Notes: generated by a model not told the origin, from the sequence alone. Shown: positions 19,365 through 61,499, counted from the first letter of the stretch. The stretch: DNA of 64,000 nt from an uncultured Methanosarcinales archaeon (GCA_964535955.1 CAZHVK010000002.1:8122-72121); one strand, 5' to 3'. Made by a program: numbers and translations.

Positions 19365-19414
19365 CACACCTTATCTTACCAGGGGCGGGTGGCCAGGAGG
19401 CAAGGATTGGTGGG
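19365..19414 (+). repeat. G-tract dispersed element, copy 1
   Basis: AGGGGCGGGTGGCCAGGAGGCAAGGATTGGTGGG preceded by a C-rich leader. Confidence 0.75.
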
Positions 19415-19484
19415 TTTATCATATAATTTTAATAGAGTATACAACATACTATAAAAACTTTTTTATAAAAAAGCAAGAAATTCT

Positions 19485-20486
19485 CTACCCCCAAACACCA
19501 CCAACAACTTCACCACAACTATAACATTTACCACTACTTAATTTATTCTGCAGAACAGTATAAGCTTTTCTTTCAATCAAAAGATTGCCACACTTAGAAC
19601 AACAAGTATTTTCAGCTTTATCAGTCAACATATTACCAACATAAACATAATGCAATTTCTTACGAGCAATATCATAAGCTTTCATAAGAGTCTTCACATT
19701 AGTAGCAGGAACATCATTCATTTTATAATTAGGAAAAAATCTAGAAATATGTAATGGCACATCAGCACTAAGTTTATCATGAATCCAGTCAACCATTTTT
19801 GTGATCAGACCCATATTATCATTAAGACCAGGAATAACAAGATTAGTCAGTTCAAGCCAGACACCAAGTTTATGAATAGTTTTAATAGTATCTAACACAG
19901 GCTCTAACCTACCACCACAATATCTAGTATAAAATCTAGGATCAAAAGCTTTAAAATCAACATTAGCAGCATCTATATAACGATACAATTTTTTCAAAGG
20001 CTCTTGATTAATGTAACCATTTGTTACCATTATATTTTTCAAACCCTTACGCTTAGCCAACCTAGCAATATCTAAAACATATTCATAAAATATAGTTGGT
20101 TCTGTATAAGTATAAGCAATACTTTTACATCCTTTATCAATTGCTTCAACAACAACTTCTTTAGGTTCTAAAGAATGACCAAATACTTCATCATTTTGAG
20201 AAATTTCATGATTTTGACAATGTTTACAATGAAGATTGCAGCCAACTGTACCAATTGAAAATACATCAGAACCAGGAAGTAGGTGAAAAATAGGTTTTTT
20301 TTCTATTGGATCAACATGAACAGCACATGGTTTGCCATAAACTAAACTAATAAGCTTACCATCTTCATTTTTCCTAACCCTGCAATTTCCTACAGAACCA
20401 GGTTTAATCAAACAATTATTAGGACAGAGTATACATTTAATCTGATTATTTTCCAATTTTTTATAGAAAAGAGCTGTTTTTGCCAT
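19485..20486 (-). CDS. AmmeMemoRadiSam system radical SAM enzyme
   Basis: CILCPNNC, DPIEKKP, GCNLHCKHCQN, AYTYTEP. Confidence 0.92.
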   Translation of the reverse strand: MAKTALFYKKLENNQIKCILCPNNCLIKPGSVGNCRVRKNEDGKLISLVYGKPCAVHVDPIEKKPIFHLLPGSDVFSIGTVGCNLHCKHCQNHEISQNDEVFGHSLEPKEVVVEAIDKGCKSIAYTYTEPTIFYEYVLDIARLAKRKGLKNIMVTNGYINQEPLKKLYRYIDAANVDFKAFDPRFYTRYCGGRLEPVLDTIKTIHKLGVWLELTNLVIPGLNDNMGLITKMVDWIHDKLSADVPLHISRFFPNYKMNDVPATNVKTLMKAYDIARKKLHYVYVGNMLTDKAENTCCSKCGNLLIERKAYTVLQNKLSSGKCYSCGEVVGGVWG

Positions 20487-20595
20487 AACAATTAATATAA
20501 AACAAGTACAATATAAATGTTCATTACCACTAAGAGATAGTTAGAAAAGTTTTAATAGGGATTTGAATTTAAAACCACTAAGGGGTGTTACTAAT

Positions 20596-21255
20596 ATGGG
20601 ATTATTTGGATTAGGAAAAAAGAAAAAAGCTAAAGATTCAAGTCTAGGAGAATTAGGAAGTTTACCAAAATTACCAGAATTGCCTTCATTACCAGGAACT
20701 AAAAAATTAGAATTACCACAAATTCCGAAAAAAAGACAAGGACTTTCTTTTCCAGGTAAAATACCTTCATTAAATAAACAAGTAAAGCCAATAAAATCTT
20801 CACAAGATATTGATATTCCTGCAATTAGAGTTAAACCAAAAACAAATGAGAAAAAACTAGTTATTAGAAAACCAATAGAAATAGGATCAAAAAAACCAGT
20901 GGAAATAGAACCAGAAGAAAGAAAACCAATGCTCAAAAAAATAATAAGAAAGCCAATGCAAATTTTATCAAAAGCAAAAAGATATGAAGAACAAATTGTT
21001 AGAGAAGAAAAAGAAGAGTTTCATGAACTTCATGCACATTTAATAGGAAAACCTGTTTTTGTTGAAGGAAATATTTTTAAAGAGATTCTTACAGATATCA
21101 CAATAATAAACAACAATCTAAAAGAAGGAAATGATTCTTTAGAAAAAATAAAATCAATAGAAAAAAGAAAAACAACTAAATTTATTAATTTAAAATCAAG
21201 CATCCTAAATGTTCAAAGAAAATTAATTTTTATTGATAGATTAATATTCAAATAA
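20596..21255 (+). CDS. Hypothetical protein, Pro/Lys-rich N-terminus + C-terminal coiled coil
   Basis: SD-like GGGGTG upstream; C-terminus resembles the next ORF. Confidence 0.7.
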   Translation: MGLFGLGKKKKAKDSSLGELGSLPKLPELPSLPGTKKLELPQIPKKRQGLSFPGKIPSLNKQVKPIKSSQDIDIPAIRVKPKTNEKKLVIRKPIEIGSKKPVEIEPEERKPMLKKIIRKPMQILSKAKRYEEQIVREEKEEFHELHAHLIGKPVFVEGNIFKEILTDITIINNNLKEGNDSLEKIKSIEKRKTTKFINLKSSILNVQRKLIFIDRLIFK

Positions 21256-21270
21256 TGAGGTGGATAAAGT

Positions 21271-21510
21271 ATGGAAAGATCAAGTGAAATAATGCCTGTT
21301 TATGTCAAAGTTGAAGAATATAAAGAAGTATTAGAACTAATTAACATCATTAAAAATAAAATAAAAGATGCAAAAATTGCATTAGAAGATATTAATAGAC
21401 TAAAAAATGAAGAAGATGCAGAGTTAGAGATTTGGCAGACAAGCATAGAAGAAGTTGAAAGAAAAGTAGACTTTATTGACAGAATAATGTTTGAGCCAGA
21501 AACATTGTAA
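21271..21510 (+). CDS. Small coiled-coil protein
   Basis: SD GAGGTG upstream; heptad pattern. Confidence 0.75.
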   Translation: MERSSEIMPVYVKVEEYKEVLELINIIKNKIKDAKIALEDINRLKNEEDAELEIWQTSIEEVERKVDFIDRIMFEPETL

Positions 21511-21524
21511 TATGGTGGGATAAT

Positions 21525-21923: not shown

Positions 21924-21995
21924 TTTCTTTTTTTTCTATTTTTTATGATTTTTCCAATACATTTTTAAAGATTCTAGATTTTTCTTTATTTATAT

Positions 21996-22122
21996 GTGGG
22001 GATGCCGGAGTGGCCAAGTATCTGGTAAAGATAGGCTAAACGGGGCAGACTCAAAATCTGCTAGCTTAGTGCTTACGGGGGTTCGAACCAATAATTATAT
22101 TGCGAAAGTCCCTCTCCCCACA
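21996..22122 (+). tRNA. tRNA-Leu(CAA) with two non-canonical introns (D-loop 22018-22039; T-loop 59/60 22088-22108)
   Basis: Acceptor GTGGGGA/TCCCCAC; anticodon arm GCAGA-CTCAAAA-TCTGC; long variable arm; both inserts form BHB motifs (GGCC/GGCT and TTCG/CGAA central helices). Confidence 0.92.
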
Positions 22123-22262
22123 TTATCTTTTCTTAACTTATATTATGTGCTATACATATAATATATCTTATATATATACTACAATAGAAAAGCATATAAA
22201 TACCTAATTTAATCCTAAATATATAAATAATAATTAAAAAAATCAAGGGGGATTGATTATAT

Positions 22263-23006: not shown

Positions 23007-23189
23007 TTGAATATACTACTCAGAAGTGAATAATATCGAAACATTTATAAACCTAGTTCTACTTCTCTATATAAATAAAGTATAAGTCATAAGAAGGGGT
23101 TCTTTAGATTAATTACACAATTAAGGGGATAAACTATGTTTCAAAATCTTTAGATTTTGAAGCTGCGAATGAGACAGAGGCGAATGAGT

Positions 23190-26100
23190 ATGAATACACC
23201 ACAAAAAATAGACATAACAATCAATGATCTAATTGATACTATCATAAGATCAAAAGCAAAAAAACCAGAAACAATCAAAAAACACCTAGACCAAGACAAG
23301 ATAAGAGGTAAATTAGCAACTATTTTTGGTCAAGACTATCTAAATAGAACAATAGAAACAATTAAATCTGATTCTAAAGACAAATTAAAAGAAAAAACTG
23401 ATGATGATGGTGACTTGTACTATGATGAAGATGATGTAATAAGACAAATTGAAAGTGATATTGAAAAGATAAGATACACAACAAGACCAACAGGCATAAG
23501 ACCAACATTAGACCAATTAAGAGATTATGTAAACAAAGCAATTAGCCACAGAGCCTGGGATTTATTAGACAAAATATTAAGCTTGTCAGAAGAAGGTGAA
23601 CTAGAACCAAAAGCTGTTCAAAAAATGGCACTAGACAATATTATAGATGGAGATGATGATTCATATGTATTATTTACAAATAAGTTTGGTGAAGTTGATT
23701 TTACAAAAGATGTTGTCATACCAATTTATGATGAACTAATAGAAGAAGAAAATTATATTAAGCTCCAAAGAATAAAAACAGAAACAGGAATTCCTGTTCC
23801 ACAAGATTCATGCCAAGAAAAATATGAAGAAATAGTTTTAGATGACAAATTTTCAAAAATAGATGAATTGTTTAGTGCAAGTGGTGTACAACCAGAGCTG
23901 ACAAAAACAATGAAAAATAACATAATTCAAAGACTAAAAAAACAAGGATTTCAAGGAAAAATATGTGAAAACCGTTGGAGAAACATAGAAGCAGAAGAAG
24001 ATGAAATAAGTTCTTTAGAAAATTATTTTGAAATAAGTAAACAAACAAGATTCATAAGAAAACTTCAAGAAACTGCATTAAGCAATGATTATATAGATAA
24101 TTTCTTAAGATTATATAATATAACTACACACAAGATATCAGAAACAGTTCTTAATGATGGATATAAAAGATTATCGGAAGAATATGAAAAAGATAAAGCA
24201 ATAGACGAAGATGAAAGTCAAGGTAATGAAGAAAAACAAGAAATCAAAAGAGATAGATTAGAAGAAATTCTTAGAATAATAAAAACAACAAAAACAATAA
24301 AAACAAAGAAAATAGCTCACAAGATTTACAATAAATTACTAAAAGAACAAAGATATAAAGAGATAGAACTATTGCAAAAAGACATAAACATAAAACCTAA
24401 ATTTGATAAACAAACAATTGAACACAGATTAATGCAATTATGTGATTCTTCAATACATAGAAGAGACAAATTTAATATGAATAAATTCTTATCATTTGCA
24501 GACATGGTAACTGAAACAGGATTTGAAATACCAAGAACATATATTGACCAAGCATGTTTTAATCATCTTGATCACAAAGGAAGAGCATTTGAATCAATAG
24601 AAAAAGTAAATAAAGTATATAAAAAATTCAATCTAGAACCACATGAAAGTGTTAACTCATATAAAATCATGTGTTTGATGTGGGAATTAGATTCAAAAAT
24701 TAAGAGAAAAGAAACAGAATATAGTAAAAAAGAATATCAAAGAAAGATTTCACCACTTGAACCAATAAACAGATTCAACACAACCATGTATAACAAATAC
24801 AAAACCTCTGTTAATTCATTGGTTAAAAAATATATCAAAGAAATGTCTCAAATAGACAAAACAAAGATAAATAAAAAGGTTTTTGAACAACACAATCATG
24901 AAATGCAAAAAGTATATGAAAGATGTCTAGAATTACTTATAGTCCAAGCATCAAAAAATGAACAATCTCTAGTAAAAGTTGATAAATTAGAAAAACAAAC
25001 AGGAATAAAAATAAAAGATAGAACAATCAGCGACGCAATAAGGAAATTTATAGAAAAAAATTATAGGAATATTGAAAACCCAGAAAACATAATAAAAACA
25101 ATCAACACAAGAACAGACATAAACATAGATTTAGAACAACCATTTTATTATATTCCTGGAATGAAAGCAAATGATACACTTACAGACAAAATAGGGGGCC
25201 ACCTTATCACAGTACAACAGTATCATGAAGAAAGAACAGATTTAGGAGAAAAATTGAATTATCTCCTTGCTTTTGCAAATAAAGATAAATTTTCAGAAAA
25301 AACACAAGCAGAAATAAGAAAAAAGATGATTGAATATTTAGAAAACGGTCAAACAAAGAAATATGATAATCTGATTCCATTCTTATCAAAAAAAATAAGA
25401 TTCAATAAACAAGAAAAACAAACATTAGAACAAAAAGCAATTGAATTTATTAAAAATAGTAGTTGGGAATATGGTGGACTAAACAGATTAAAAAGATTTG
25501 ATTGCATTGCCTCAAGAGCAAACATCAAACCAAAAATACAACAACAAGAATTAAATGAATTAATAAAACAATATTTTGACAAAAGCAATTCAAACAATGC
25601 ACCAACAGATATTTCAAAAAGATTCAATCTAGTTCCAGATGAAAAACAAATAAAAGACAGATATGTTTATTTACTTGAAAAAAAAGAAAAATATGATTGG
25701 CCAGATAAATGGTATGTAAATGATGCAACAAAACAAGTAGAAAAACTAAGAAAAGATACAGGTGTTAAACTAGATAGAGATTATATAAAAATATTTATAC
25801 AAACATGGTTAAATAAACAAGATTATTACAGAGCAAAAGAATATATTAAATTATTCACAGAATCATTTGATTTTAGATATTCTGAACAAGAATTACAAAG
25901 ATTATACAATGGAAATGATAATTATGAAATCGTAAATTTACTATTAAATACACACAAAATACCACCTAACAAAGAAAAAGCAGAAGAAATAATAAAAAAA
26001 GTATATAAAAGTGAAAGAGCTTATGGAAGAGATTTAGTAAAAAGTCTAACTCATGATCATAAGATTCAAACACCAGATGAAATAACAGACAATATCAAAG

Positions 26101-26570
26101 AAAGCATAACATTTTATCTTGAAAAAAGAGAGATTATCAATTTGATTCCAATAGCATATGAATTACACAACATATATAATAAATCAGACATAGTGTCTAA
26201 ACAACAAGCAGAACAAATAATCTCTGAAATAGGTTATTTATTCCAAAAAAGAACAGAAGACATAACAAGATCATCTTTAAATGCATTAGACATATCATAT
26301 ATCTATGAAAAAGCAAATGCTCAAGACAAAGCAATTGACTTTGCAACACAATTATTCAAAACAGCATTTGACAAAGAACTTTATAAGAATAATATCTATA
26401 GAGGATATGTATTTTGCGCAATCACAGGTGCAAAACCAGACTTAGATCAAGAAAAATTAGCAGAACTTAAACATGATGCACAATTATCAGGAAAATATCA
26501 ATACACATTTGGAGCAGAACAAAGACAAGAATATATAGAAATGCTAGACAAATGGGTTTCAGGTGAATAA
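23190..26570 (+). CDS. Large hypothetical helical-repeat protein (TG[IV]K-type repeats)
   Basis: Long ORF with recurring ETGIPV, SGVQPE, ETGFEI, QTGIKI, DTGVKL motifs; start uncertain (23157/23184/23190). Confidence 0.75.
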   Translation: MNTPQKIDITINDLIDTIIRSKAKKPETIKKHLDQDKIRGKLATIFGQDYLNRTIETIKSDSKDKLKEKTDDDGDLYYDEDDVIRQIESDIEKIRYTTRPTGIRPTLDQLRDYVNKAISHRAWDLLDKILSLSEEGELEPKAVQKMALDNIIDGDDDSYVLFTNKFGEVDFTKDVVIPIYDELIEEENYIKLQRIKTETGIPVPQDSCQEKYEEIVLDDKFSKIDELFSASGVQPELTKTMKNNIIQRLKKQGFQGKICENRWRNIEAEEDEISSLENYFEISKQTRFIRKLQETALSNDYIDNFLRLYNITTHKISETVLNDGYKRLSEEYEKDKAIDEDESQGNEEKQEIKRDRLEEILRIIKTTKTIKTKKIAHKIYNKLLKEQRYKEIELLQKDINIKPKFDKQTIEHRLMQLCDSSIHRRDKFNMNKFLSFADMVTETGFEIPRTYIDQACFNHLDHKGRAFESIEKVNKVYKKFNLEPHESVNSYKIMCLMWELDSKIKRKETEYSKKEYQRKISPLEPINRFNTTMYNKYKTSVNSLVKKYIKEMSQIDKTKINKKVFEQHNHEMQKVYERCLELLIVQASKNEQSLVKVDKLEKQTGIKIKDRTISDAIRKFIEKNYRNIENPENIIKTINTRTDINIDLEQPFYYIPGMKANDTLTDKIGGHLITVQQYHEERTDLGEKLNYLLAFANKDKFSEKTQAEIRKKMIEYLENGQTKKYDNLIPFLSKKIRFNKQEKQTLEQKAIEFIKNSSWEYGGLNRLKRFDCIASRANIKPKIQQQELNELIKQYFDKSNSNNAPTDISKRFNLVPDEKQIKDRYVYLLEKKEKYDWPDKWYVNDATKQVEKLRKDTGVKLDRDYIKIFIQTWLNKQDYYRAKEYIKLFTESFDFRYSEQELQRLYNGNDNYEIVNLLLNTHKIPPNKEKAEEIIKKVYKSERAYGRDLVKSLTHDHKIQTPDEITDNIKESITFYLEKREIINLIPIAYELHNIYNKSDIVSKQQAEQIISEIGYLFQKRTEDITRSSLNALDISYIYEKANAQDKAIDFATQLFKTAFDKELYKNNIYRGYVFCAITGAKPDLDQEKLAELKHDAQLSGKYQYTFGAEQRQEYIEMLDKWVSGE

Positions 26571-26572
26571 TA

Positions 26573-29002
26573 ATGCCAGGATTTGGATTAGGTTTGGGTC
26601 TACAAATGCAAACAAGTTGTCACATGCAGTTACAATGTGGTTTACAGTTACAACTAACATTAGCACAACCAACAGACCCTGATGCATTCAGACCAGAAGG
26701 AGAAATAGAACACATTTCTCAGCATGAAATCCTTGAACAATTAATAGAAAAGATTGATAACAAAGAATTCTGCGACAATATTTATTTTGGCTTAGAGATC
26801 AACAGGACAATATTTGGCCATTCTCTTGAGACAAGATTAGGATATTTTGGTAAAGATATACAACAACTTATGGAATTTTATGATAGTAATGAAGAATCAA
26901 CAAAAAACCTCCTGCATATATTAGGCTCAAGAAAAAAAGCACAAATACCACAAAATGTAGAAGATGATGAAATTAATGAAAGACAAGAGATAATACAAAA
27001 ACAAACACCTGGTGTTGTTGCTCATGCATGGAACAACATAAACAAGTCATATTATTTTAAAAAAGAAAAAACAAACAAACAAATATTCAATTTCTTAGCA
27101 TATCTTAATCAAACAGAAGCTGACATTGCTGTTGGTATTGAAAACCTGTCGAAAGTAACAGAATTAAAAAACCAAAGACATTTAGTAAAAAAAACATTTG
27201 ACAAGATAAAATCATATGCTCAAACAGATACAAGACTTATAACATTTAGTAAAAGTATATTATGCCCTATTGTAAAAGCATTAAAACAAAATAAAGAAAA
27301 ACTAACAACAAATGAATCAGAATTATTATACAAAAACATAATAGAATATCTTTTCATGCTTGACCAAGAATTAAGAATAGGTGACACTGTAGAAAAAATA
27401 GCTGATTCAATAAAAGAAAATGGGATAAAAAAACTTCTTAATCAGAAGATTCCAATTCCATTACAAACTTATCTAGAAAATATACAGCCAAACAAAAAAA
27501 CACAAGACAAGATAGTCAACTTATTCAATGAAAAAGAATTTAAACAAGGAAGAGAATTGCAAAGAAAAATTTACAAAGGATTTTCAGCATTAGAAGAACT
27601 TGATAAAGGAAAACAAATTCTGGAACACATAGTAGAAAACACACCAACATCAAAAATATTATCTAGTATTTTATTAAGATTATATCTTGTCCACCACGAA
27701 CCTGATTTTGAATACAATTTTCAACTAGAGAATCATAAAAAAATAATAAGAAACCTAAAATTTCAATTAGTAGACAAAAGCATAAAAAGATTAAACCTTG
27801 ATGATGATACATTAGAAAAATATCTTCAAAGATTAGAAACAGATGACAGATTTCAAAGAATAAGTGGAATAATCACAAAACTTGCAAGTTATAAACATTA
27901 TCAAAATTCTCAACAATTAGAATTATTAAAAGAGATCACAGAACAAGAACTTGATAATAATTTCAATAAATGGAGATATTCTCATGACAAAGCACAAGAA
28001 CAATTAAAAGTACTAGGTAAAGATATAGATGAATGGAAAAATAATACACAAGTTACAAGAATAGTAGGAAAAATAGAAAAAGCTCTCAACACGCATGTAG
28101 AATCTGTTAAAAACATGCTACCAACAATATTTACAATATATAGAGACCATTATGGTAATGAATTTGATGAACCAGATGAAGATGACTTAAAACAACAAAT
28201 ATCTGATAATGAACAAGAATTAAAAACAGGAAATTTGTCAAAAAAACATAAAAAACAAATAGGATATAAGACTTTTTTATTAAGAGAACGTCTGACTTAC
28301 TTAGAATTCATAAACAGCCTAAATCATCTTGATATAAACAATTACACAGACATATTAAATAAAGCACAAGAGATCTTAAAAAAGAAATCAAAAAACCCTG
28401 TATATCAAAATATCCAATGTGTTAAAGAAACACTAGACCAACCAGAATATAGAAATTCAAGAAAAATAATAGTAAGAGAGACAGATGATCTTGAAACAAT
28501 GCTAAGATTCGGTGAAATTCCAGTATCACATTGTCAAAATTGGAAGAGTGAAAGTTCATATAATACATCATTATTAAGCTTTGTTGCAGATGCAAATAAA
28601 AAACTTTACCATATTATAAATGGTGAAGACAAAGCAATTAGTATGACTATAGTAAGATTAATAGATTGGTATGATAACCCTACAATCTTAGCTGAAAATG
28701 TGTATGCAAGAGAATGGTCAGAAGATTATGGTATTGCATTATTCTCTAGCTTAGCAGAAAAAGCATATTCCATATATGAGGAAACAGGCAAACAAGTAAG
28801 AATTGCAACAAATGATTCAAGACTAGAAAAAGCAATGGAACAATTTGCTGAAAAATATGAAATAGAAGTATTTAAAGACACTATTAAAACAATACCTCCT
28901 GAAAGCAAAAACACTAAAGAATACTATGATTTTAGTCATAGAACAGATAAAAAATATATAACAGCAAATGTCAAATATATCTGTTTTGGTGAACAAGAGT
29001 AA
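26573..29002 (+). CDS. Large hypothetical protein with Gln/Leu-rich N-terminus and conserved-looking C-terminal domain
   Basis: Starts 2 nt after the previous stop; C-terminal ETDDLETMLRFGEIPVSHCQNW...DANKK...ENVY. Confidence 0.75.
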   Translation: MPGFGLGLGLQMQTSCHMQLQCGLQLQLTLAQPTDPDAFRPEGEIEHISQHEILEQLIEKIDNKEFCDNIYFGLEINRTIFGHSLETRLGYFGKDIQQLMEFYDSNEESTKNLLHILGSRKKAQIPQNVEDDEINERQEIIQKQTPGVVAHAWNNINKSYYFKKEKTNKQIFNFLAYLNQTEADIAVGIENLSKVTELKNQRHLVKKTFDKIKSYAQTDTRLITFSKSILCPIVKALKQNKEKLTTNESELLYKNIIEYLFMLDQELRIGDTVEKIADSIKENGIKKLLNQKIPIPLQTYLENIQPNKKTQDKIVNLFNEKEFKQGRELQRKIYKGFSALEELDKGKQILEHIVENTPTSKILSSILLRLYLVHHEPDFEYNFQLENHKKIIRNLKFQLVDKSIKRLNLDDDTLEKYLQRLETDDRFQRISGIITKLASYKHYQNSQQLELLKEITEQELDNNFNKWRYSHDKAQEQLKVLGKDIDEWKNNTQVTRIVGKIEKALNTHVESVKNMLPTIFTIYRDHYGNEFDEPDEDDLKQQISDNEQELKTGNLSKKHKKQIGYKTFLLRERLTYLEFINSLNHLDINNYTDILNKAQEILKKKSKNPVYQNIQCVKETLDQPEYRNSRKIIVRETDDLETMLRFGEIPVSHCQNWKSESSYNTSLLSFVADANKKLYHIINGEDKAISMTIVRLIDWYDNPTILAENVYAREWSEDYGIALFSSLAEKAYSIYEETGKQVRIATNDSRLEKAMEQFAEKYEIEVFKDTIKTIPPESKNTKEYYDFSHRTDKKYITANVKYICFGEQE

Positions 29003-29480: not shown

Positions 29481-29562
29481 AGTTTTCTTGGTTTTTTCTT
29501 TATTTTTTTATATTTGTATTAATAGCAATCAATCTTAATCATAAATAGAATTCTAAAAAAGA

Positions 29563-29758
29563 TGGGGATGCCGGGATTTGAACCCAGATTTCAACTCCTA
29601 ATATCATACAATACCAGGATCCGTTGGTCTCTTCATCAGAAGCGATAGACCAATAGTTAATCATCGCATTTCTGCTCATCGCTCCATTACTGGAGCCAAC
29701 TATTAAGGACAGATTGTGCTTAAACACAAATCTTCTAGCCAAGTTATACTACATCCCC
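29563..29758 (-). tRNA. tRNA-Trp(CCA) with three introns (D-arm ~29705-29734; 37/38 29629-29689; variable region 45/46 29590-29620)
   Basis: Acceptor GGGGATG/CATCCCC; anticodon arm GTTGG-CTCCAGA-CCAAC; T arm CTGGG-TTCAAAT-CCCGG; the 45/46 intron has a perfect CAAC/GTTG BHB; D-arm boundaries are less certain. Confidence 0.88.
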
Positions 29759-29863
29759 ATTGGCTTATATTAAGAATAATGTAGCCCTTTTTAAATATTA
29801 CTAAAATATTAGAGATCTAAATATCTTTATTTTTTAAGTAACCACTGATAGAACTAAAAAAAA

Positions 29864-30000
29864 TGGGCCTGCCGAGACTCTCATACACCAAAATTATTTT
29901 GATGATTTTGAACTCGGGACCGCCCGATCTCTGAATTGATTATTTATCAGTCGGGTGCTCTAATTGACCAGTATATACTTCCAGTCTAAGCCACAGGCCC
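29864..30000 (-). tRNA. tRNA-Ile(GAT) with three introns (19/20 29964-29980; 37/38 29929-29944; 59/60 29878-29906)
   Basis: Acceptor GGGCCTG/CAGGCCC; anticodon arm CCCGA-CTGATAA-TCGGG; each insert has BHB geometry (GACT/GGTC, CTGA/TCAG, TTCA/TGAG). Confidence 0.92.
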
Positions 30001-30196
30001 AATTGTTTTGTTGCGGGACTGAAGTGAGCGCAGCGAACGGAATGTCGCGCTATCCTGATCGAACTTGATAAAGTTCGCCATGACTCAGCCACAGGCCCAA
30101 TTGTTTTGTTGCGGGACTGAAGTGAGCGCAGCGAACGGAATGTCGCGCTATCCTGATCGAACTTGATAAAGTTCGCCATGACTCAGCCACAGGCCC
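30001..30196. repeat. Perfect 2 x 98-bp tandem repeat abutting the tRNA-Ile 5' end
   Basis: 30001-30098 = 30099-30196; each unit ends in AGCCACAGGCCC, identical to 29989-30000. Confidence 0.95.
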
Positions 30197-30282
30197 ATGA
30201 TTTTGTTTATTAATTATATTAATATATAAGCATATACAATTAATATATAAAAAGAAAAAAACTTATTTTATAAAGCTATCGA

Positions 30283-35100: not shown

Positions 35101-35624
35101 TTTCGTTCTTCATAAACACCTAAACCAGAGATCTCATCAATAATCTTTCTTCTTTCAATAGGATGCATTTCAACAAATTTAACAATATCACCTTGTAAAA
35201 CAATATTAAATCCATCTGGATCTACATCCCCATAACTTAACAACTCTAAAATTTGCTGTCTTGTAACTTTTTTATCATTAATTTTGTAAACACTTTGACC
35301 ATTTTGTCTTACTCTTCTTGAAACTTTAAGCTCTTCTTCTTCAATAGGAAAAACTTTATGAGTATTATCAAAATGAATATAAACCTCACCAAATTTAGAA
35401 GGTTTTTTTGCTTTTCCGCCATTATATATCAGGTTCGCTGATTTCTCAGCCCTCATTGATTTAGCTGAACCTCTACCAAGAACAAAACACAATGCATCTA
35501 ATAAATTAGATTTACCACTACCATTAGCACCAATTACACAATTGAATTCATCACCAAACAAAAACTCTGTATGCTTAGCAAAACTCTTAAATCCAAGCAT
35601 TGACATTTTATTTATTTTGATCAT
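32130..35624 (-). CDS. smc: Chromosome segregation protein SMC
   Basis: GFKSF, GANGSGKSN, hinge (GTVSQIG...ATFLPLNKI), LSGGEK, LDEVDAALD. Confidence 0.97.
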   Translation of the reverse strand: MIKINKMSMLGFKSFAKHTEFLFGDEFNCVIGANGSGKSNLLDALCFVLGRGSAKSMRAEKSANLIYNGGKAKKPSKFGEVYIHFDNTHKVFPIEEEELKVSRRVRQNGQSVYKINDKKVTRQQILELLSYGDVDPDGFNIVLQGDIVKFVEMHPIERRKIIDEISGLGVYEERKDKALRELGKVDEKLNEADIILAERKTYLRELKKERDHAFKFKSLRDKLSGNKASFLHIKIKKKTKESDKLGTNLNKNKSKLAEVNKQISDLRKDIEQKKSSVDNISGEIEQKGEKEQVKLHKEVETLKVNLATNNERLNNVEAEIDKVKQRKKKLKDNFKEQGDKVKDLVAEKEELIKEKERKQTELKKVEDEIKKFRKKHHMDNEDGIQKQIEELDNFTEGKEKSIQEFRQKQQFLLRQKDQIEFQLETIDQQLDKVKKIESAHKAQIKELMNRKQLFKKTTLELNKCLTQDSKFAAQLGDTRRRHQEQSERLAKLELTNVGVKEKLSGNIAVQKIIEQKSNMKGIHGTVSQIGNVNSKYSLALKVAAGHHIKSIVVENDEVASKCIKYLKQKRLGVATFLPLNKIKPHKSNPNIKNILNNKGVHGLAIDLVDFDNKFRKVFEYIFSNVAVVDNIDTARKIGIGKAKMVTLDGDMTGLSGEMRGGYILKKTKGLGFSEKEVTEELENLSKSVSELRNLISLLEKKRGENEKSIDKLRILKAEYEGEVIKLEKSLHLESGDLGISVDKKKELKDDLKKTNSDLNKINMDLSSLNRELAQNKINRQKLRGKISQLRNPRLVAELNAFEEKKNEVKERLIQIESEIKNFDAQMSLISPEREKIEDILKQHDKEIHKFKLEMEGLNTKIKNSKKFLKKKEQMAKEFYKKYKALFNERSKLKDSVNKTENKIDLLRELSRKTEIDMNTFSLENARVKADLSGLKQEFKQYEGVVINENKTEQELKYEIDKFERMAANMGAVNMKALEVYDKVEREYNNLIEKKDKLDTEKHSVLGMIEEIEGKKTDLFTGTFEVVNNKFKEIFLALSKKGEAFLQLENPTKPFDAGLNIKVRLSGQKFLDIRSLSGGEKTMTALAFIFAIQEHKPHSFYILDEVDAALDKHNSEKLAKLIRQYCEKAQYIVISHNDAVISEADNLYGVSMNEHGMTKVTSLKL

Positions 35625-35666
35625 TAGTTTTGTTCACCTTTGTTTTTATTATAATTATTAATATTG

Positions 35667-35712
35667 TCCCTTACATCCTCAGGGGTGGGTGGTCGGGGGT
35701 TAGGAAGGTGGG
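35667..35712 (+). repeat. G-tract dispersed element, copy 2
   Basis: AGGGGTGGGTGGTCGGGGGTTAGGAAGGTGGG in a divergent intergenic region. Confidence 0.85.
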
Positions 35713-35839
35713 AAAATTTCTTTATTTATATATATAAAACCTATTTTATTTATATATATTGTGGTTGTAGAAAAAACAATAAAATAATAACTAAACAATA
35801 GAAAACTTTAAAACCAGCACAACAATCCTGCAAAATAAC

Positions 35840-37111: not shown

Positions 37112-37153
37112 AAACAAACCACAACCCAAGAATTTAGAAAACAAAAAAATACA

Positions 37154-37202
37154 GCCTACCTACTGAACCTGGGTCGGGTGGCCGTGGGCATTACAAGGTG
37201 GG
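37154..37202 (+). repeat. G-tract dispersed element, copy 3
   Basis: GGGTCGGGTGGCCGTGGGCATTACAAGGTGGG between convergent genes. Confidence 0.8.
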
Positions 37203-37206
37203 TCAA

Positions 37207-37767
37207 TCAAACAATATCCTTAACAACTTCTCCATTCTTAACAATACCAATCTGACAAAAACCAAGAGATTTCCATCGACTCATAATATCATCCAGTTTG
37301 CCTAATAAAGAAGCAAAGTAAAGCGCTAGAACAGTTCCATGTGTTGCAATAATTATTTTATTATTATTATATTTTTTATCAATATCAGAAACAGCTTTTT
37401 TAAACCGACTAAGAGCATGATTTGGTGTTTCCCATCCAAAATCATTATGATCAAAATCTTCAAACAAAGCTTTTTTCATTTGTTTATATTTTTCAGTAGG
37501 AATCCCTTCACCACCACCTCTTTCTAATTCTCTAAGATCATTTACCTGAATTATTTCCTTACCAAGTTTCTGTGCCAATGGTCTGATTGTCAAAAATGCT
37601 TTGTTTTCTATAGATGAAATAATTATATCAGCATCCTGAAGTTCACGATTATCTGCTAATTTTTCAGCTTCTTGTTTACCAGAATCAGTAAGATCCCAAT
37701 CTGTAATTATTGTGTTCCAATCTTTCTTTGTCTCAGCATGACGGATAAATATTAGTGTATTGTTCAT
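37207..37767 (-). CDS. Histidine phosphatase (phosphoglycerate mutase-like)
   Basis: FIRHAET, LRELERG, IATHG. Confidence 0.9.
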   Translation of the reverse strand: MNNTLIFIRHAETKKDWNTIITDWDLTDSGKQEAEKLADNRELQDADIIISSIENKAFLTIRPLAQKLGKEIIQVNDLRELERGGGEGIPTEKYKQMKKALFEDFDHNDFGWETPNHALSRFKKAVSDIDKKYNNNKIIIATHGTVLALYFASLLGKLDDIMSRWKSLGFCQIGIVKNGEVVKDIV

Positions 37768-37805
37768 ATTAGAGAAAAGAAAGCATAATCACATTATAAA
37801 ACTTT

Positions 37806-37853
37806 GCCTGCTACCGAGCCAGGTGTGGGTGGTCGGGGGATGGAATTGGAGGG
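37806..37853 (+). repeat. G-tract dispersed element, copy 4
   Basis: AGGTGTGGGTGGTCGGGGGATGGAATTGGAGGG. Confidence 0.75.
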
Positions 37854-37855
37854 AA

Positions 37856-38686: not shown

Positions 38687-38862
38687 AATGATACTTTTGA
38701 TTTAAGAGTATAAAAATGTTTGTGTAGATGGTGAGAAAGGAGTAGGTGGTGTGGAAGTGGGTTTGGTGGGCAAAGTTTAAATACTACCTACTACAAATAA
38801 TACAATTAACATGTATGCAAATCTTGATTTGCATGCTACGAACGAAACAAGGTGAAGTGAGT

Positions 38863-40127: not shown

Positions 40128-40207
40128 ATTCGGCAACAGCTTCCCTCTGTTTCCTCCGACCTGAGGGTTATGAGCCCTCCGGGCACTCCTGACTGCCCTA
40201 CCCCGCT
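40109..40207 (-). tRNA. Initiator tRNA-Met(CAT) with a 24-nt intron at 53/54 (40129-40152)
   Basis: A1:U72 acceptor AGCGGGG/CCCCGCT; GAGGG-CTCATAA-CCCTC with three G-C pairs; hairpin insert AACAG/CTGTT in relaxed BHB. Confidence 0.93.
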
Positions 40208-40307
40208 ATAACCAGGATTCTATATATCAAGAAACCAACCCCATTTATAAATATTACCCAATATATCAGAAATCTTTAAAAACACAAACCAATTCTATTA
40301 ATAACAT

Positions 40308-45094: not shown

Positions 45095-45141
45095 TTTAAA
45101 AAAAATTAAGAAACAATAAAAAATATAACATAGCCTTTAAC

Positions 45142-45177
45142 AGCCACTGGCGGGATGATTGGGGCGGAGCAGGTGGG
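45142..45177 (+). repeat. G-tract dispersed element, degenerate copy 5
   Basis: GGCGGGATGATTGGGGCGGAGCAGGTGGG between convergent genes. Confidence 0.5.
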
Positions 45178-45501: not shown

Positions 45502-45522
45502 GATATTCACCTCTTATTTATT

Positions 45523-45569
45523 CCACCTACTAAACCAAGGGCGGGTGGCCGGGGGTTATGGAAGGTGGG
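45523..45569 (+). repeat. G-tract dispersed element, copy 6
   Basis: CCACCT...AGGGCGGGTGGCCGGGGGTTATGGAAGGTGGG. Confidence 0.85.
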
Positions 45570-45571
45570 TA

Positions 45572-50596: not shown

Positions 50597-50652
50597 ATCG
50601 CCTACCTAAAGAGACAGGGGCGGGTGGCCGGGGGCATCATGAGGATGGTGGG
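50597..50652 (+). repeat. G-tract dispersed element, copy 7
   Basis: AGGGGCGGGTGGCCGGGGGCATCATGAGGATGGTGGG. Confidence 0.85.
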
Positions 50653-50697: not shown

Positions 50698-50835
50698 ATG
50701 GGAGACATAATATGCCAAAAATGTAAAAGTGTTATGATAAAAAGAGGAACAATGGATTCAGGTAATAGTAAATTCGATGTATTCAAATGCACAAACTGCA
50801 GCAATGAGAAGATGATGTGTAGAGGTATTAATTAA
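50698..50835 (+). CDS. Small zinc-ribbon protein (not in ORF track)
   Basis: MGDIICQKCKSVM...FKCTNCSNEKMMCRGIN; SD AGGTGA upstream. Confidence 0.75.
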   Translation: MGDIICQKCKSVMIKRGTMDSGNSKFDVFKCTNCSNEKMMCRGIN

Positions 50836-57282: not shown

Positions 57283-57304
57283 GACAGTACTAAACTCACA
57301 AGAA

Positions 57305-57844: not shown

Positions 57845-57917
57845 ACATTATCAAAAGAAACTAGTTCTTAATAAAGATTTTGTGAGTATAAACAAAGAGT
57901 AAAAAAAGAATAAAAAA

Positions 57918-59528: not shown

Positions 59529-59529
59529 T

Positions 59530-60147
59530 TTATTCTCCTCCTTTAGGTACATAAATAGAATCAAAAACAAATGCCCTTAAATCATCATCTTTGTAAATAG
59601 CATTTATCATTGCATTTAAATTACCAGCATCTCTTGGATTTATTGCTTTTCTTAATTCCATAATTTCATCAGGTGTAACATCCCTTCCATAATTAAACAC
59701 AAGTTCTCTTAATTTGTAAAAAGTTTCCTTGATTTCAGCAACCCTTTCATCAACAGGAGCTTTTTCTTGTTCATTTCCTTGTACTCTTTCTGCAAGCAGA
59801 GTTGTTTCAACTGCTATATATTTTAATCTTAAAATTAATTCATCATTACTAACACCAGGAACTTCTAATATTGCAACCTTTTTTTCAGGTGTTTTAGATT
59901 TAGCAGTAACTTTAGGAACAACACTTTCTTTAGATTGTATGTTACCTCTATATTCATCAGGTATTGCAAGAACTTCTTCTAATTTAGATAATGTATCTTC
60001 ATCAGGTCGATATTCATTACTTTCATATCCACCAATAGTACTTTTAGCTTTATCTACAAGTGAACCTAATTTGATCTGAGAAATACCTTTTTGTTTCCTA
60101 AAATATTTTATTTTTTCCCCTAATGTGTTAAATTCTAAATCTGACAT
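59530..60147 (-). CDS. XRE-family HTH protein with unknown C-terminal domain
   Basis: LGEKIKYFRKQKGISQIKLG...STIGGYESNEYRP; stop is 1 nt from the GHKL start. Confidence 0.85.
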   Translation of the reverse strand: MSDLEFNTLGEKIKYFRKQKGISQIKLGSLVDKAKSTIGGYESNEYRPDEDTLSKLEEVLAIPDEYRGNIQSKESVVPKVTAKSKTPEKKVAILEVPGVSNDELILRLKYIAVETTLLAERVQGNEQEKAPVDERVAEIKETFYKLRELVFNYGRDVTPDEIMELRKAINPRDAGNLNAMINAIYKDDDLRAFVFDSIYVPKGGE

Positions 60148-60243
60148 ATAATCCCCTCAATTATTATATAGTAAACAGAAATGGTATATAAAGGTTTCTA
60201 TTGTTTACTACTGAGAAATAGTTAAATCATTTGTTCTTTAGCA

Positions 60244-60903
60244 TTAATTGATTTTTTTACCCAAATAAACAAAGTGTTTTGTTGGCAAAGGCGCTCTTGA
60301 CCAATTTTGACTTTTTAATCCTGCTCTAGAAAAAAGACAATCAACCCCTTTATTTCGCATGATCTGAATACAATCATCTAAACCAAAACTTGTATGCATT
60401 CTATATGATTCTAGATCTCCTAATAATTCCCTTTCTCTTTGTTCAATTCTTATATATCCCCATCTTTGATAAAATTCATCATAAGACATGCTTTTCATAT
60501 CATAATCAACAACTCCAATAAACCCTCTTAATCTTAAAAAAGATAATGCTTCATCAATTAGTTCATTAGGGTTTTCATGCAAAACAGCTAATGCAAAAAC
60601 AAAATCAAAAACAAAACTAGGTTTAGTATGTGTAAATATAACATCAAAATATTCATCAAATCTTTTTGAAGATGTTTTCTCTATAATTGCACCAATAGCA
60701 TTAGAACGCTCTTTTATAGATTGTATTTTTTCTTGATTTTTATCATACGCAGTTACTTGTGTATTTCCTAAATATCTATTAACCATAACAGGAAAAAAAC
60801 TATCACCAGATCCAAAAACCAAAGCATTATTGATAGGATCATAGTTATCTAATTCCTTTAAAACAAGTCCTGGAATAAGTCCTTCAATAGCATCTTCTCT
60901 CAT
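60244..60903 (-). CDS. Class I SAM-dependent methyltransferase
   Basis: LVFGSGDS, TAYD, FALAVLHE, GFIGVVDY. Confidence 0.75.
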   Translation of the reverse strand: MREDAIEGLIPGLVLKELDNYDPINNALVFGSGDSFFPVMVNRYLGNTQVTAYDKNQEKIQSIKERSNAIGAIIEKTSSKRFDEYFDVIFTHTKPSFVFDFVFALAVLHENPNELIDEALSFLRLRGFIGVVDYDMKSMSYDEFYQRWGYIRIEQRERELLGDLESYRMHTSFGLDDCIQIMRNKGVDCLFSRAGLKSQNWSRAPLPTKHFVYLGKKIN

Positions 60904-60965
60904 AACATATTGGGAAAACCAGAACTATAAAAAGATATTTAAACTAAACAATATAAATAAAGTTT

Positions 60966-61499
60966 ATGAAAGTAATCATAGTAACAGGCTCACCAGGAAC
61001 TGGTAAAACAAAACTAGCTAAGAAACTAGCAAAACAAAAACACTATGAATACATTAATGTATCTAAGCTAGTCAAAAATGGAAAACTTTATGATTATTAT
61101 GACAGGAAAAGAAGAACATATGTTGTTGATACTAAAAAACTTAACAAATTTCTTATTGAAATAATAAAAATGTATAAATGTAATAAGCATCCAGCCCTTA
61201 CTAAGTCAGGGGTGGGTGGCCGGGTGGCTGGAAGGTGGGCTAATAAAAAAGATAAAGTCAAAGGCATAATCATAGACTCTCACATGTCACATTACCTACC
61301 AAAGAAGTATGTTAATCTGTGCATTGTGACAAAATGCAACCTAAAACAACTAAAAACAAGACTTAAAAGAAGAAAATACAACAAAGCAAAGATCAGAGAA
61401 AACTTAGATTGTGAGATATTTGATGTATGTTTAACAGAAGCAAAAGAAAAAGACCATAAAATAAAAATAATTGATACAAGTAAAACCCAAAAAAGCTGA
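60966..61499 (+). CDS. Adenylate kinase AK6/Fap7 family with an in-frame G-tract insertion
   Basis: VTGSPGTGKT, IIDSH, RLKRRKY...KIRENLDCEI. Confidence 0.9.
   Translation: MKVIIVTGSPGTGKTKLAKKLAKQKHYEYINVSKLVKNGKLYDYYDRKRRTYVVDTKKLNKFLIEIIKMYKCNKHPALTKSGVGGRVAGRWANKKDKVKGIIIDSHMSHYLPKKYVNLCIVTKCNLKQLKTRLKRRKYNKAKIRENLDCEIFDVCLTEAKEKDHKIKIIDTSKTQKS
61191..61239 (+). repeat. G-tract dispersed element, copy 8 (intragenic)
   Basis: CCAGCC...AGGGGTGGGTGGCCGGGTGGCTGGAAGGTGGG. Confidence 0.85.

What the first reader, a model, noticed from the sequence alone, without database searches (positions are those of the whole stretch)
19365..61239. Strand-polarised dispersed G-tract element with G-quadruplex-like architecture
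Seen: about 8 copies (near 19381, 35681, 37171, 37821, 45149, 45538, 50616, 61208; a looser one at ~38730-38770). Consensus is a C-rich leader, then (A)GGGGYGGGTGGYCGGGGG-N-(A)GGTGGG, striking in AT-rich DNA. All are G-rich on the + strand whether the flanks are convergent, divergent, tandem or coding; I saw no inverted copy (8 of 8 is about 1/128 by chance). The G-tracts persist while loops diverge, and five copies have four G>=3 runs. Inference: a replichore-oriented chromosome signal (KOPS/Chi-like, e.g. for SMC or the HerA/FtsK-like motors in this window), a G4-forming regulatory element, or a small non-autonomous mobile element.
Basis: partly seen in the sequence, partly recalled or inferred. 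Interest (0 to 1): 0.85.

Follow-up and report, generated by a model that had tools for sequence, protein, structure and literature searches.

The report
Replication-polar G-rich mini-repeat in DPANN archaeon
A small clade of uncultivated marine Woesearchaeota-like archaea carries a roughly 50-base, G-rich, non-palindromic repeat that has been inserted between and even inside genes and always points the same way relative to the genome's strand asymmetry, so it looks like a new kind of small mobile repeat whose orientation is locked to DNA replication rather than a chromosome-guiding signal.

Summary
Eight copies plus one degenerate copy of a 45-54 bp element (CCYTTAC leader, CAGGGGYGGGTGGYCGGGGG core, variable loop, GGTGGG tail) all lie G-rich on the + strand. 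No inverted copy exists in the window or in about 236 kb of related DNA. They are the only G-quadruplex-capable sequences in the 64 kb window.

The host is a 29% GC DPANN (Woesearchaeota-like) archaeon. The element has no conserved hairpin and no Rfam match. Relative to neighbouring genes it is sense, antisense or coding, so an RNA role is unlikely. It is gained and lost between close relatives. One case is a clean 54-nt insertion with a duplicated AATAA inside an adenylate-kinase-like gene, and another copy sits in frame in FtsY.

Third-codon GC skew, separated by gene strand, shows the whole window is one compositional replichore. The G-rich strand always lies on the C-rich strand, also in two independent loci of relatives with the opposite skew sign.

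Best reading: a lineage-restricted, non-autonomous insertion repeat whose orientation is fixed by replication. A KOPS/Chi-type signal is not supported. Orientation flipping at an origin or terminus, G4 folding and the mobilising enzyme remain untested.

The parts
19366..19414 (+). Copy c1. It lies between two minus-strand genes: 37 nt upstream of the TyrRS/TrpRS-type gene start (19329) and 71 nt past the radical-SAM gene stop (19485). It has three G>=3 runs.
35666..35712 (+). Copy c2, in the divergent spacer between smc (-, start 35624) and UDP-glucose dehydrogenase (+, start 35840). It sits between the shared TATA-like box and the smc Shine-Dalgarno sequence. It is present at the same place in relative B, and absent in C and G.
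37154..37204 (+). Copy c3, 43 nt after the UDP-glucose dehydrogenase stop and 3 nt from the stop codon of the minus-strand histidine-phosphatase gene. Together with c4 it brackets that single gene as a direct repeat.
37806..37853 (+). Copy c4, between the histidine-phosphatase start (37767) and the RNase HII stop (37856). Relative C has one element here and no histidine-phosphatase gene.
38727..38771 (+). It lies directly upstream of a BRE/TATA-like AAAGTTTAAATA. G-rich orthologues occur at the same place in relatives B and C.
45133..45177 (+). Copy c5, the most diverged copy. It lies 39 nt after the PRPP-synthetase-like gene stop and 7 nt from the stop of the minus-strand 108-aa gene. Together with c6 it brackets that single gene.
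45522..45570 (+). Copy c6, which fills the 61-nt spacer between two co-oriented minus-strand genes (TrpRS stop 45572, 108-aa gene start 45510). If the two genes share a transcript, as the 61-nt spacer suggests, this copy would be in the C-rich sense.
50600..50652 (+). Copy c7, 30 nt after the Drg-type GTPase stop and 45 nt before a conserved 45-aa zinc-ribbon ORF (50698-50835, +). It is present at the orthologous place in relatives B and C.
61188..61241 (+). Copy c8, a 54-nt in-frame insertion (HPALTKSGVGGRVAGRWA) in the AAA_18/adenylate-kinase-like gene 60966-61499. It is flanked by AATAAG and AATAAA, where the empty site in relatives has a single AATAAA.
60966..61499 (+). Host gene of c8 (adenylate-kinase/Fap7-like, Pfam AAA_18). 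Close homologues (80-84% identical over the aligned parts) and all five outgroups aligned lack the insert.

Best explanation
The element is a lineage-restricted family of 45-54 bp, non-palindromic, G-rich insertion repeats in a shallow clade of marine Woesearchaeota-like DPANN archaea. Copies have been added to the chromosome at different times, in AT-rich spacers and occasionally in frame in tolerant protein loops. They act at the DNA level, not as an RNA.

Their orientation is locked to replication. The G-rich strand is always the strand that is C-rich at synonymous sites, which I infer to be the leading-strand template. The C-rich strand therefore lies on the lagging-strand template.

I favour the following mechanism. 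A still unidentified enzyme mobilises or copies the repeat. Only insertions that keep the G4-prone strand off the single-stranded lagging-strand template survive, or integration itself happens at the fork on one strand.

Shown: copy family, polarity, gain and loss, lack of hairpin, G4 potential, strand asymmetry. Inferred: the direction of replication, the reason for the polarity and the mobilising activity.
For: - Family and polarity: 7 core hits on +, 0 expected; no inverted copy in about 236 kb.
- Gain and loss: c8 is a precise 54-nt insertion plus a duplicated AATAA, compared with empty sites in relatives B and C. It is absent from all outgroups. A second in-frame insertion lies in the FtsY N-terminal region of another relative. 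c2 is present in A and B but not in C or G. The copy downstream of PCNA is present in B but not C. One copy sits at the RNase HII site in C against two copies bracketing a gene in A. No copy was found in the 18 kb sampled from lineages G/H or the 21 kb from a more distant Woesearchaeote.
- DNA level rather than RNA level: c6 lies in a 61-nt spacer between two co-oriented minus-strand genes, c8 is sense in a plus-strand gene, and a B copy is sense between tandem genes. There is no consensus fold. Fold z-scores are near 0 for 7 of 8 copies. Rfam finds nothing.
- Replication link: GC3 skew split by gene strand gives a + strand component of -0.36 to -0.37, uniform over 50 genes. Loci L002 and L018 have skew components of +0.20 and +0.46 and carry the element on the minus strand, so the rule is the same. 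That makes 13 of 13 sites, or about 10 independent clusters.
- The observed orientation runs against the mutational bias, so differential decay cannot produce it.
- G4 potential: the only putative quadruplex sequences in the window.
Against: - No transposase or recombinase partner was found in the window or in the related loci.
- Target duplications are not significant across copies (permutation p = 0.15).
- Terminal complementarity is generic (CCC...GGG) and not copy-specific (p = 0.34 and 0.89).
- Copies within one genome are only about 68% identical, which is old for an active MITE.
- c7 and c9 are kept at orthologous sites in three species. G columns, a leader TA and the T of GGGTGG are conserved (1.4 against 0.6 bits). 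This could mean function rather than selfishness.
- Some 'empty' sites (c2 in C, PCNA in C) could be deletions.
- Replication direction is inferred from skew only, and no origin or terminus was available to see a flip.
- One doubtful member (L017) has the opposite orientation.
Confidence: 0.48

Rival explanations
1. A functional polar chromosome signal. The element would be a long, oriented recognition site read by a DNA motor or replisome-associated factor (SMC, a HerA/FtsK-like ATPase, or a fork-pausing protein). It would be analogous in logic to KOPS, Chi or Ter sites and maintained by selection.
For: - Perfect co-orientation with strand asymmetry, including two independent loci.
- c7 and c9 are retained at orthologous positions in three species.
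- Specific positions beyond the G runs are conserved: the leader TA and the T in GGGTGG.
- The orientation persists against the mutational bias.
- Orthologous copies are no more alike than paralogues, and tail variants are shared within a genome, as for repeats co-evolving with a reader.
Against: - Sparse and irregular: none in window 1-19 kb or in 61.3-71.5 kb.
- Gained and lost between relatives whose proteins are 80-87% identical.
- No copy in the 18 kb and 21 kb sampled from slightly more distant lineages.
- Inserted into two protein-coding genes.
- The G-rich 5'-to-3' direction points against the inferred fork movement, the opposite of KOPS and Chi.
- No reader protein is identified, and the nearness of smc and herA is anecdotal.
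Confidence: 0.17
2. A recombination site that delimits exchangeable gene cassettes, integron-attC-like in logic. A circular gene-plus-element unit integrates at a resident element and leaves the gene bracketed by two direct copies.
For: - Single genes are bracketed by direct copies: c3-histidine phosphatase-c4, c5-108 aa gene-c6, and c2-UDP-glucose dehydrogenase-c3.
- Relative C has one copy and no histidine-phosphatase gene at exactly that site.
- The RNase HII-smc interval holds different genes in A, B and C, with elements at the junctions. In lineage G the two genes are adjacent and there is no element.
Against: - c1, c7, c8, c9 and the FtsY copy carry no cargo, and c8 is the element alone.
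- There is no palindrome or hairpin as in attC.
- No integrase was seen.
- Deletion between direct repeats explains the C configuration equally well.
- Bracketing copies are not more alike than random pairs (c3-c4 0.67, c5-c6 0.58).
- This reading does not explain the genome-wide polarity relative to skew.
Confidence: 0.12
3. A G-quadruplex regulatory element acting on transcription or translation of neighbouring genes, as a terminator, pause site, promoter-proximal element or mRNA G4.
For: - High G4 propensity (G4Hunter up to 2.08), and the only putative quadruplex sequences in the window.
- c3, c5, c7, the B copy downstream of PCNA and the B copy at L025 about 7050 lie 25-70 nt downstream of a sense-strand stop codon.
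- c2 and c9 adjoin TATA-like boxes.
Against: - The position relative to genes is inconsistent: sense, antisense, 5', 3' and coding.
- c1, c4 and c6 are antisense between co-oriented genes.
- Three of eight copies in the window lack a fourth G3 run.
- The same sites are empty in close relatives that keep the same genes and promoters.
Confidence: 0.1
4. A small structured non-coding RNA gene, or a REP/IS200-type hairpin element.
For: - A GC-rich island in AT-rich DNA is typical of RNA genes.
- The leader contains YTAC, like the GTAG/CTAC of REPs and the TTAC target of IS608 (my own knowledge).
- Copy c6 folds well (z = -2.8).
Against: - No consensus structure.
- Fold z-scores of -0.7 to +1.3 for 7 of 8 copies, as RNA, and between -1.6 and +1.3 for the same seven as DNA.
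- No covariation between the ends.
- No Rfam match even at E <= 10.
- Neighbouring genes place different copies in opposite senses.
Confidence: 0.03

Closest known systems
KOPS (FtsK), Chi (RecBCD/AddAB) and archaeal ASPS
   Same: Strand-polarised, G-rich and dispersed, with orientation tied to replication-associated strand asymmetry. ASPS show that archaea can carry skewed motifs pointing to dif (PMC2958812).
   Different: Those motifs are 4-8 nt, very frequent, conserved across whole families of genomes and G-rich on the leading strand. This element is about 50 bp, occurs about once per 8 kb with long gaps, is variably present between close relatives, sits inside genes, and is G-rich on the strand inferred to be lagging-type.
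MITEs (miniature inverted-repeat transposable elements)
   Same: Small, non-coding and multi-copy, mostly intergenic in AT-rich targets. It shows presence/absence polymorphism and one clean 5-bp target duplication.
   Different: It is at or below the small end of MITE sizes. Only a weak, generic CCC...GGG end complementarity is present. No autonomous partner was found, the copies are old (about 68% identical), and the orientation is 100% uniform, whereas MITEs, as far as I know, show no such uniform orientation.
Rickettsia palindromic elements (RPE)
   Same: A small repeat that inserts in frame into protein-coding genes and is translated as an extra surface loop. Here this happens in an adenylate-kinase-like protein and in FtsY.
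   Different: RPEs are 100-150 bp and palindromic, occur in a bacterium and show no reported replication polarity. This element is half that size, not palindromic and strictly polar.
IS200/IS605-derived elements and REP/RAYT repeats
   Same: Strand-specific behaviour coupled to replication (single-strand transposition into the lagging-strand template; my own knowledge of Ton-Hoang et al. 2010). A YTAC-like tetranucleotide lies near one end.
   Different: Those elements depend on imperfect hairpins recognised by a Y1/HUH transposase. Here no hairpin is detectable, no conserved flanking target tetranucleotide exists, and no TnpA or RAYT gene was seen.
Integron attC sites
   Same: Direct repeats that bracket single genes. 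For integrons, too, orientation relative to replication matters (my own knowledge).
   Different: attC sites are folded palindromes next to an intI/attI platform in one array. Here there is no palindrome, no integrase, the copies are scattered, and some copies carry no cargo.
G-quadruplex motifs (for example mitochondrial CSB II)
   Same: Four G runs with conserved runs and variable loops, with a strand-specific placement.
   Different: Extra conserved non-G positions and a conserved C-rich leader. Three of eight copies in the window lack a canonical fourth run. No consistent relation to transcription units.

Membership tests
KOPS/Chi/ASPS-type polar chromosome motif | Short motif (4-8 nt) at high, fairly even density along each replichore | tested here: not met
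   The element is 45-54 bp. There are 9 copies in 64 kb, none in 1-19 kb and none in 61.3-71.5 kb.
KOPS/Chi/ASPS-type polar chromosome motif | Orientation follows the replichore and flips at origin and terminus | tested here: inconclusive
   Orientation tracks the sign of the strand GC3 skew in the window and in loci L002 and L018. No skew switch point was available, so a flip within one chromosome was not seen.
KOPS/Chi/ASPS-type polar chromosome motif | Conserved across related genomes as part of core chromosome organisation | tested here: not met
   Sites are filled or empty between relatives whose proteins are 80-87% identical. None was found in lineages G/H (18 kb) or in a more distant Woesearchaeote (21 kb).
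KOPS/Chi/ASPS-type polar chromosome motif | Read by a known translocase or nuclease (FtsK gamma domain, RecBCD/AddAB) | not testable with these tools
   HerA-like and SMC genes are nearby, but no binding can be tested.
MITE | Terminal inverted repeats | tested here: inconclusive
   The ends are generically complementary (CCYACC against GGTGGG, 4-6 nt). True left/right pairs are no better matched than shuffled pairs (p = 0.34 and 0.89).
MITE | Target-site duplication | tested here: inconclusive
   One clean case was seen (AATAAG...AATAAA around c8 and its orthologue, against a single AATAAA in empty sites). Across eight copies the result is not significant (p = 0.15).
MITE | Presence/absence polymorphism at orthologous sites | tested here: met
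   Seen at the c8, c2, PCNA-downstream and RNase HII sites.
MITE | A related autonomous element with the same ends | tested here: not met
   No transposase domain was found among 40 window proteins scanned against Pfam. The rest of the genome could not be searched.
REP/RAYT and IS200/IS605-derived elements | Imperfect palindrome (hairpin) recognised on single-stranded DNA | tested here: not met
   DNA and RNA folding z-scores lie between -1.6 and +1.3 for 7 of 8 copies, and no consensus structure was found.
REP/RAYT and IS200/IS605-derived elements | Orientation bias relative to replication | tested here: met
   13 of 13 sites have the same relation to the strand skew.
Rickettsia-type in-frame palindromic element | In-frame insertion into protein-coding genes with the reading frame preserved | tested here: met
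   c8 in the AAA_18 gene (54 nt, with variants that differ by multiples of 3) and a copy in FtsY.
Rickettsia-type in-frame palindromic element | Palindromic sequence of 100-150 bp | tested here: not met
   The element is 45-54 bp and not palindromic.
Integron attC | Folded palindromic site at cassette 3' ends beside intI/attI | tested here: not met
   No palindrome, and no integrase among the proteins scanned. Bracketing of single genes is seen three times.
Canonical G-quadruplex motif | Four runs of three or more G with short loops | tested here: met
   5 of 8 window copies meet this with loops of 15 nt or less, and none with loops of 7 or less. G4Hunter is 1.5-2.08 for six copies. By eye, most copies in relatives also qualify.
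Canonical G-quadruplex motif | Cation-dependent folding | not testable with these tools
   This needs CD, UV melting or NMR in K+ compared with Li+.
Known structured RNA family (Rfam) | Match to a covariance model, or a conserved covarying structure | tested here: not met
   No hit at gathering score. Only chance-level hits at E <= 10. No covariation.

The most novel reading that the evidence does not exclude
The repeats could be a genuine, selected, replication-oriented DNA signal of DPANN archaea. This would be a long, G4-forming polar site that a replisome-associated or chromosome-organising factor reads in one direction only, for example to pause forks, to prime or to load SMC/HerA-type motors. 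It would spread by copying itself to new sites. That would be the first long polar 'architecture' element described in archaea.
Probability: 0.15. Interest if true: 0.85.

Novelty: new variant of a known kind. Interest (0 to 1): 0.55.

Why it matters
Small dispersed repeats are common, but I know of none that combines these traits: non-palindromic, G-quadruplex-prone, translated when it lands in genes, and perfectly co-oriented with an unusually strong replication-type strand asymmetry. It also occurs in DPANN archaea, whose replication and genome dynamics are almost unstudied.

If the polarity comes from selection, the family is a natural experiment. It would show that G4-prone DNA is tolerated on only one template strand in a reduced genome.

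If the polarity comes from the insertion mechanism, it points to an unknown single-strand or fork-coupled mobilisation system in archaea.

Either way, the element and the GC3 skew give a practical marker for orienting replichores in fragmentary DPANN assemblies.

Tried and rejected
- **Structured RNA or riboswitch.** Rejected: no Rfam hits, no consensus fold, and fold energies like those of shuffles.
- **Hairpin-based REP, IS200 or attC element.** Rejected on the same fold evidence, and no end covariation.
- **Small protein or conserved peptide (SGVGGRG).** The shared open frame is broken by indels between orthologues (B's c7 copy). Most copies have stops and no start codon nearby. Two of the three forward frames of the G-rich strand are open anyway (my reading).
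- **Archaeal BHB intron in c8.** There is no helix-bulge-helix, and the variants differ by multiples of three nucleotides, as expected for translated sequence.
- **Archaeal origin boxes (ORB).** There is no dyad, and the copies are spread over 42 kb.
- **SRP-RNA-derived, SINE-like origin.** This was only a recollection of similarity. No Archaea_SRP hit at E <= 10 in the c5/c6 region searched. Not pursued further.
- **Sequencing poly-G artefact.** Rejected because the copies are internal and identical in 12 contigs from different samples and assemblers, and they are conserved across species.
- **Collection scans.** The genome and metagenome scans gave only four relevant loci. The source genome is not in those collections.
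- **Viral collection.** The full pattern gave no hit. The 18-nt core occurs in 11 contigs in unrelated contexts, 5 within about 420 nt of a contig end (3 of them under 10% of the contig length), and was judged unrelated.
- **TrpRS homologue search for the c5/c6 site.** It returned no syntenic relative.
- **Target-duplication and end-pairing permutation tests.** Both were non-significant.

Full report
**What is there.** The window is 29% GC. Its genes are archaeal housekeeping genes: SMC, PCNA, RNase HII, HerA-type ATPases (one with a LAGLIDADG intein), Cdc48, Rpb6/RpoK, TyrRS/TrpRS, L37ae, prefoldin and a Drg GTPase. The nearest named homologues are from Woesearchaeota/Nanoarchaeota MAGs. The same sequence occurs in ENA, JGI and Logan metagenome assemblies, including a 309-kb scaffold.

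The 17-nt core with up to 3 mismatches hits 7 times, always on +, with 0.00 hits expected by shuffling. Profile searches add the diverged c5. They find no further or inverted copy in the window, or in about 236 kb of window plus related loci.

The consensus is CCYTTAC, then 5 nt, then CAGGGGYGGGTGGYCGGGGG, then 6-15 nt, then GGTGGG. G columns carry 1.40 bits against 0.62 bits for the rest. A TA in the leader and the T of GGGTGG are also conserved.

The elements are the only putative quadruplex sequences in 64 kb on either strand: 5 with loops of 15 nt or less. All six G4Hunter peaks of 1.5 or more are elements.

**Not an RNA and not a hairpin.** Rfam gives nothing at gathering score, and only chance hits at E <= 10 in the c5/c6 region searched. 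RNAalifold finds no consensus structure on either strand. Single-sequence folding of the G-rich strand, as DNA or as RNA, is no better than shuffles for 7 of 8 copies. The complementarity between the leader (CC-rich) and the tail (GG-rich) is generic, because true pairs are no better than shuffled pairs.

The relation to transcription is inconsistent:
- c6 fills a 61-nt spacer between two co-oriented minus-strand genes, so it is probably transcribed C-rich.
- c8 is sense inside a plus-strand gene.
- c3, c5 and c7 follow plus-strand stops.
- c1 and c4 are antisense between tandem genes.
- A copy in relative B is sense between tandem genes.

Whatever constrains the orientation acts on the DNA.

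**Evidence of gain and loss.** c8 is an in-frame 54-nt block encoding HPALTKSGVGGRVAGRWA in an adenylate-kinase/Fap7-like protein.
- Homologues that are 80-84% identical over the aligned parts (relatives B, C and lineage H), and all five more distant homologues aligned, lack the block. Two lineages (A' and E) have variants that differ by multiples of three nucleotides.
- At the DNA level the filled sites read AATAAG-[element]-AATAAA, while the empty sites have one AATAAA. This is a clean insertion with a 5-bp duplication.
- Another relative (D) carries the element in frame in the low-complexity N-terminal region of FtsY.

Other sites behave as follows:
- c7 is present at the same place in relatives B and C.
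- c2 is present in A and B but not in C or G.
- A copy downstream of PCNA is present in B but not C.
- At the RNase HII stop, C has one copy where A has two copies bracketing a histidine-phosphatase gene that C lacks.
- In lineage G, RNase HII is followed directly by a large truncated ORF, taken to be smc from its position, with no element. In A, B and C the RNase HII-smc interval holds different genes with elements at the junctions.
- No copy was found in 18 kb of lineages G/H or in 21 kb of a more distant Woesearchaeote.

Target duplications are not significant over all copies (p = 0.15). Some empty sites could be deletions. No transposase was seen among 40 proteins scanned.

Paralogues within the window genome average 68% identity. 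That is no less than orthologous copies across species (60-68%). Tail variants are shared among copies of one genome, for example GGGGAAGTGGGTTTGGYGGG in B. This points to an old family with some homogenisation or site re-use.

**The polarity is tied to replication-type strand asymmetry.** I split third-codon GC skew by gene strand.
- Plus-strand genes have a coding-strand GC3 skew of -0.15 to -0.18.
- Minus-strand genes have +0.57 to +0.58.
- This gives a gene-orientation-independent + strand component of -0.36 to -0.37 (AT3 +0.18), seen across all 50 genes with no switch inside the window.
- Coding is evenly split between the strands (28.8 against 27.1 kb), so gene orientation does not cause this.

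By the usual rule that the leading strand has G > C and T > A, the minus strand is the leading strand (inference; the rule is established for bacteria and several archaea, my own knowledge). The G-rich strand of every element then lies on the leading-strand template, and the C-rich strand on the lagging-strand template.

Two independent loci from relatives, found by DNA pattern and stored in the opposite orientation, have + strand components of +0.20 (L002) and +0.46 (L018). They carry the element on the minus strand, so they follow the same rule. The syntenic loci L020, L022, L024, L025 and L026 also obey it.

Counting orthologues once, 13 of 13 sites follow the rule. Collapsing possible local duplications leaves about 10 independent clusters, which gives P of about 0.002.

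A doubtful member (L017) has the exact core but no leader or tail and a profile E-value of 0.07-0.13. It would be an exception.

The observed orientation places G runs on the strand that mutation makes G-poor, so differential decay predicts the opposite. The polarity must come from the insertion mechanism or from selection.

**Most likely mechanism.** I commit to a non-autonomous insertion repeat whose orientation is fixed by replication (confidence about 0.48). Two sub-mechanisms remain open.
- Dual-orientation insertion, followed by loss of copies whose G4-prone strand would be exposed on the single-stranded lagging-strand template. The single clean target duplication favours this.
- Integration into one strand at the fork, as for IS200/IS605 elements. 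The lack of hairpins argues against this.

In strain A' the flanks shown are identical, yet c8 carries a 15-nt deletion and clustered substitutions. This fits instability of the G-rich core, although that contig is short and the difference could be an assembly error.

**Rivals.**
- A selected polar chromosome signal (0.17). It is favoured by retention of c7 and c9 in three species, by conserved non-G positions and by persistence against mutational bias. It is disfavoured by sparse and irregular spacing, gain and loss among close relatives, coding insertions and restriction to a shallow clade.
- An att-like recombination site for gene cassettes (0.12). It explains the three bracketed genes and the variable RNase HII-smc interval. 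It does not explain cargo-free copies or the global polarity.
- A G4 regulatory element (0.10). It fits some positions, after stops and beside TATA boxes, but not others.
- A structured RNA or hairpin element (0.03). This is essentially excluded.

**Comparison with known systems.** In logic the element resembles KOPS, Chi and archaeal ASPS, which are tetramers such as GTTG (PMC2958812). It fails their defining features of short length, density and conservation. It shares multi-copy, polymorphic, AT-target behaviour with MITEs, and in-frame coding insertion with Rickettsia palindromic elements. It lacks clear terminal repeats, a palindrome and a partner element, and it has a uniform orientation that I do not know of for those families. 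It shares replication-coupled strand specificity with IS200/IS605 and REP elements but lacks their hairpins. I therefore rate it a new variant of a known kind: a small dispersed prokaryotic repeat.

**Limits.** The genome and metagenome scans did not contain the source genome, so no origin or terminus could be examined. Replication direction is inferred from skew. G4 folding, binding proteins and transcripts are untested.

Noticed in passing
window 1-64000; also loci L018, L020, L022, L025, L026, L028: There is an unusually strong, gene-orientation-independent strand asymmetry at third codon positions. The + strand GC3-skew component is about -0.37 in the window and 0.2-0.46 in absolute value in relatives, including a more distant Woesearchaeote. 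This contrasts with a preprint in the search results (10.1101/2023.11.15.567178, abstract only), which attributes archaeal skew to gene orientation.
   Followed up: partly
window 21995-22090 (+), about 29560-29900 (-), about 40150-40235 (-): There are tRNA-like GC-rich sequences: acceptor and T-arm-like ends, a Leu-like CAA loop and a Met-like CAT loop. ARAGORN and the Rfam tRNA model do not call them, even in E-value mode. They probably carry introns at unusual positions or are split. No tRNA at all was called in 64 kb.
   Followed up: partly
window 29989-30197: A perfect 98-nt tandem repeat (2.1 copies, 100% match) of GC-rich sequence lies next to the tRNA-like region. It looks like a duplicated piece of a structured RNA gene.
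   Followed up: no
window 50698-50835 (+): An uncalled 45-aa zinc-ribbon ORF (MGDIICQKCK...CTNCSNEKMMCRGIN) with a Shine-Dalgarno sequence is conserved in relatives B and C. The Drg-HerA spacer is therefore not a plain convergent spacer.
   Followed up: partly
window 35624-37856, compared with L025 10831-12661, L026 10127-11687 and L041 2094-2181: The interval between RNase HII and smc is a hot spot of gene-content change. Lineage G has nothing there. C has UDP-glucose dehydrogenase. A has UDP-glucose dehydrogenase plus histidine phosphatase. B has a 287-aa gene plus TrmB.
   Followed up: partly
window 23157-29002: Two very large ORFs (1137 and 809 aa, no Pfam match) sit between PCNA and the DUF5679 gene, which are adjacent in relatives B and C. 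This is a 6-kb lineage-specific insertion. Two further giant ORFs (1792 and 1450 aa) occupy window 83-10008.
   Followed up: no
window 41341-43782 and 39390-40127: A HerA/DUF87-type ATPase is interrupted by an intein with a LAGLIDADG endonuclease. A free-standing LAGLIDADG gene lies beside a tRNA-like sequence.
   Followed up: no
L044 311-436 compared with window 61150-61290: In a strain with identical flanks, c8 carries a 15-nt deletion and clustered substitutions within the G-rich core. This is either real instability of the repeat or an assembly error in a 947-nt contig.
   Followed up: partly
L030-L040 (IMG/VR contigs): The exact 18-nt core GGGGYGGGTGGYCGGGGG occurs in 11 viral contigs, 7 of them with 36-47% GC. 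That is more than simple base-composition odds would give. Five lie within about 420 nt of a contig end (3 of them under 10% of the contig length). The contexts are unrelated to the archaeal element, and poly-G-type sequencing artefacts are possible.
   Followed up: partly
L025 1815-5090: Relative B has tandem duplicated gene pairs (275-276 aa plus 76 aa, repeated) with no Pfam match, beside one of its element copies.
   Followed up: no
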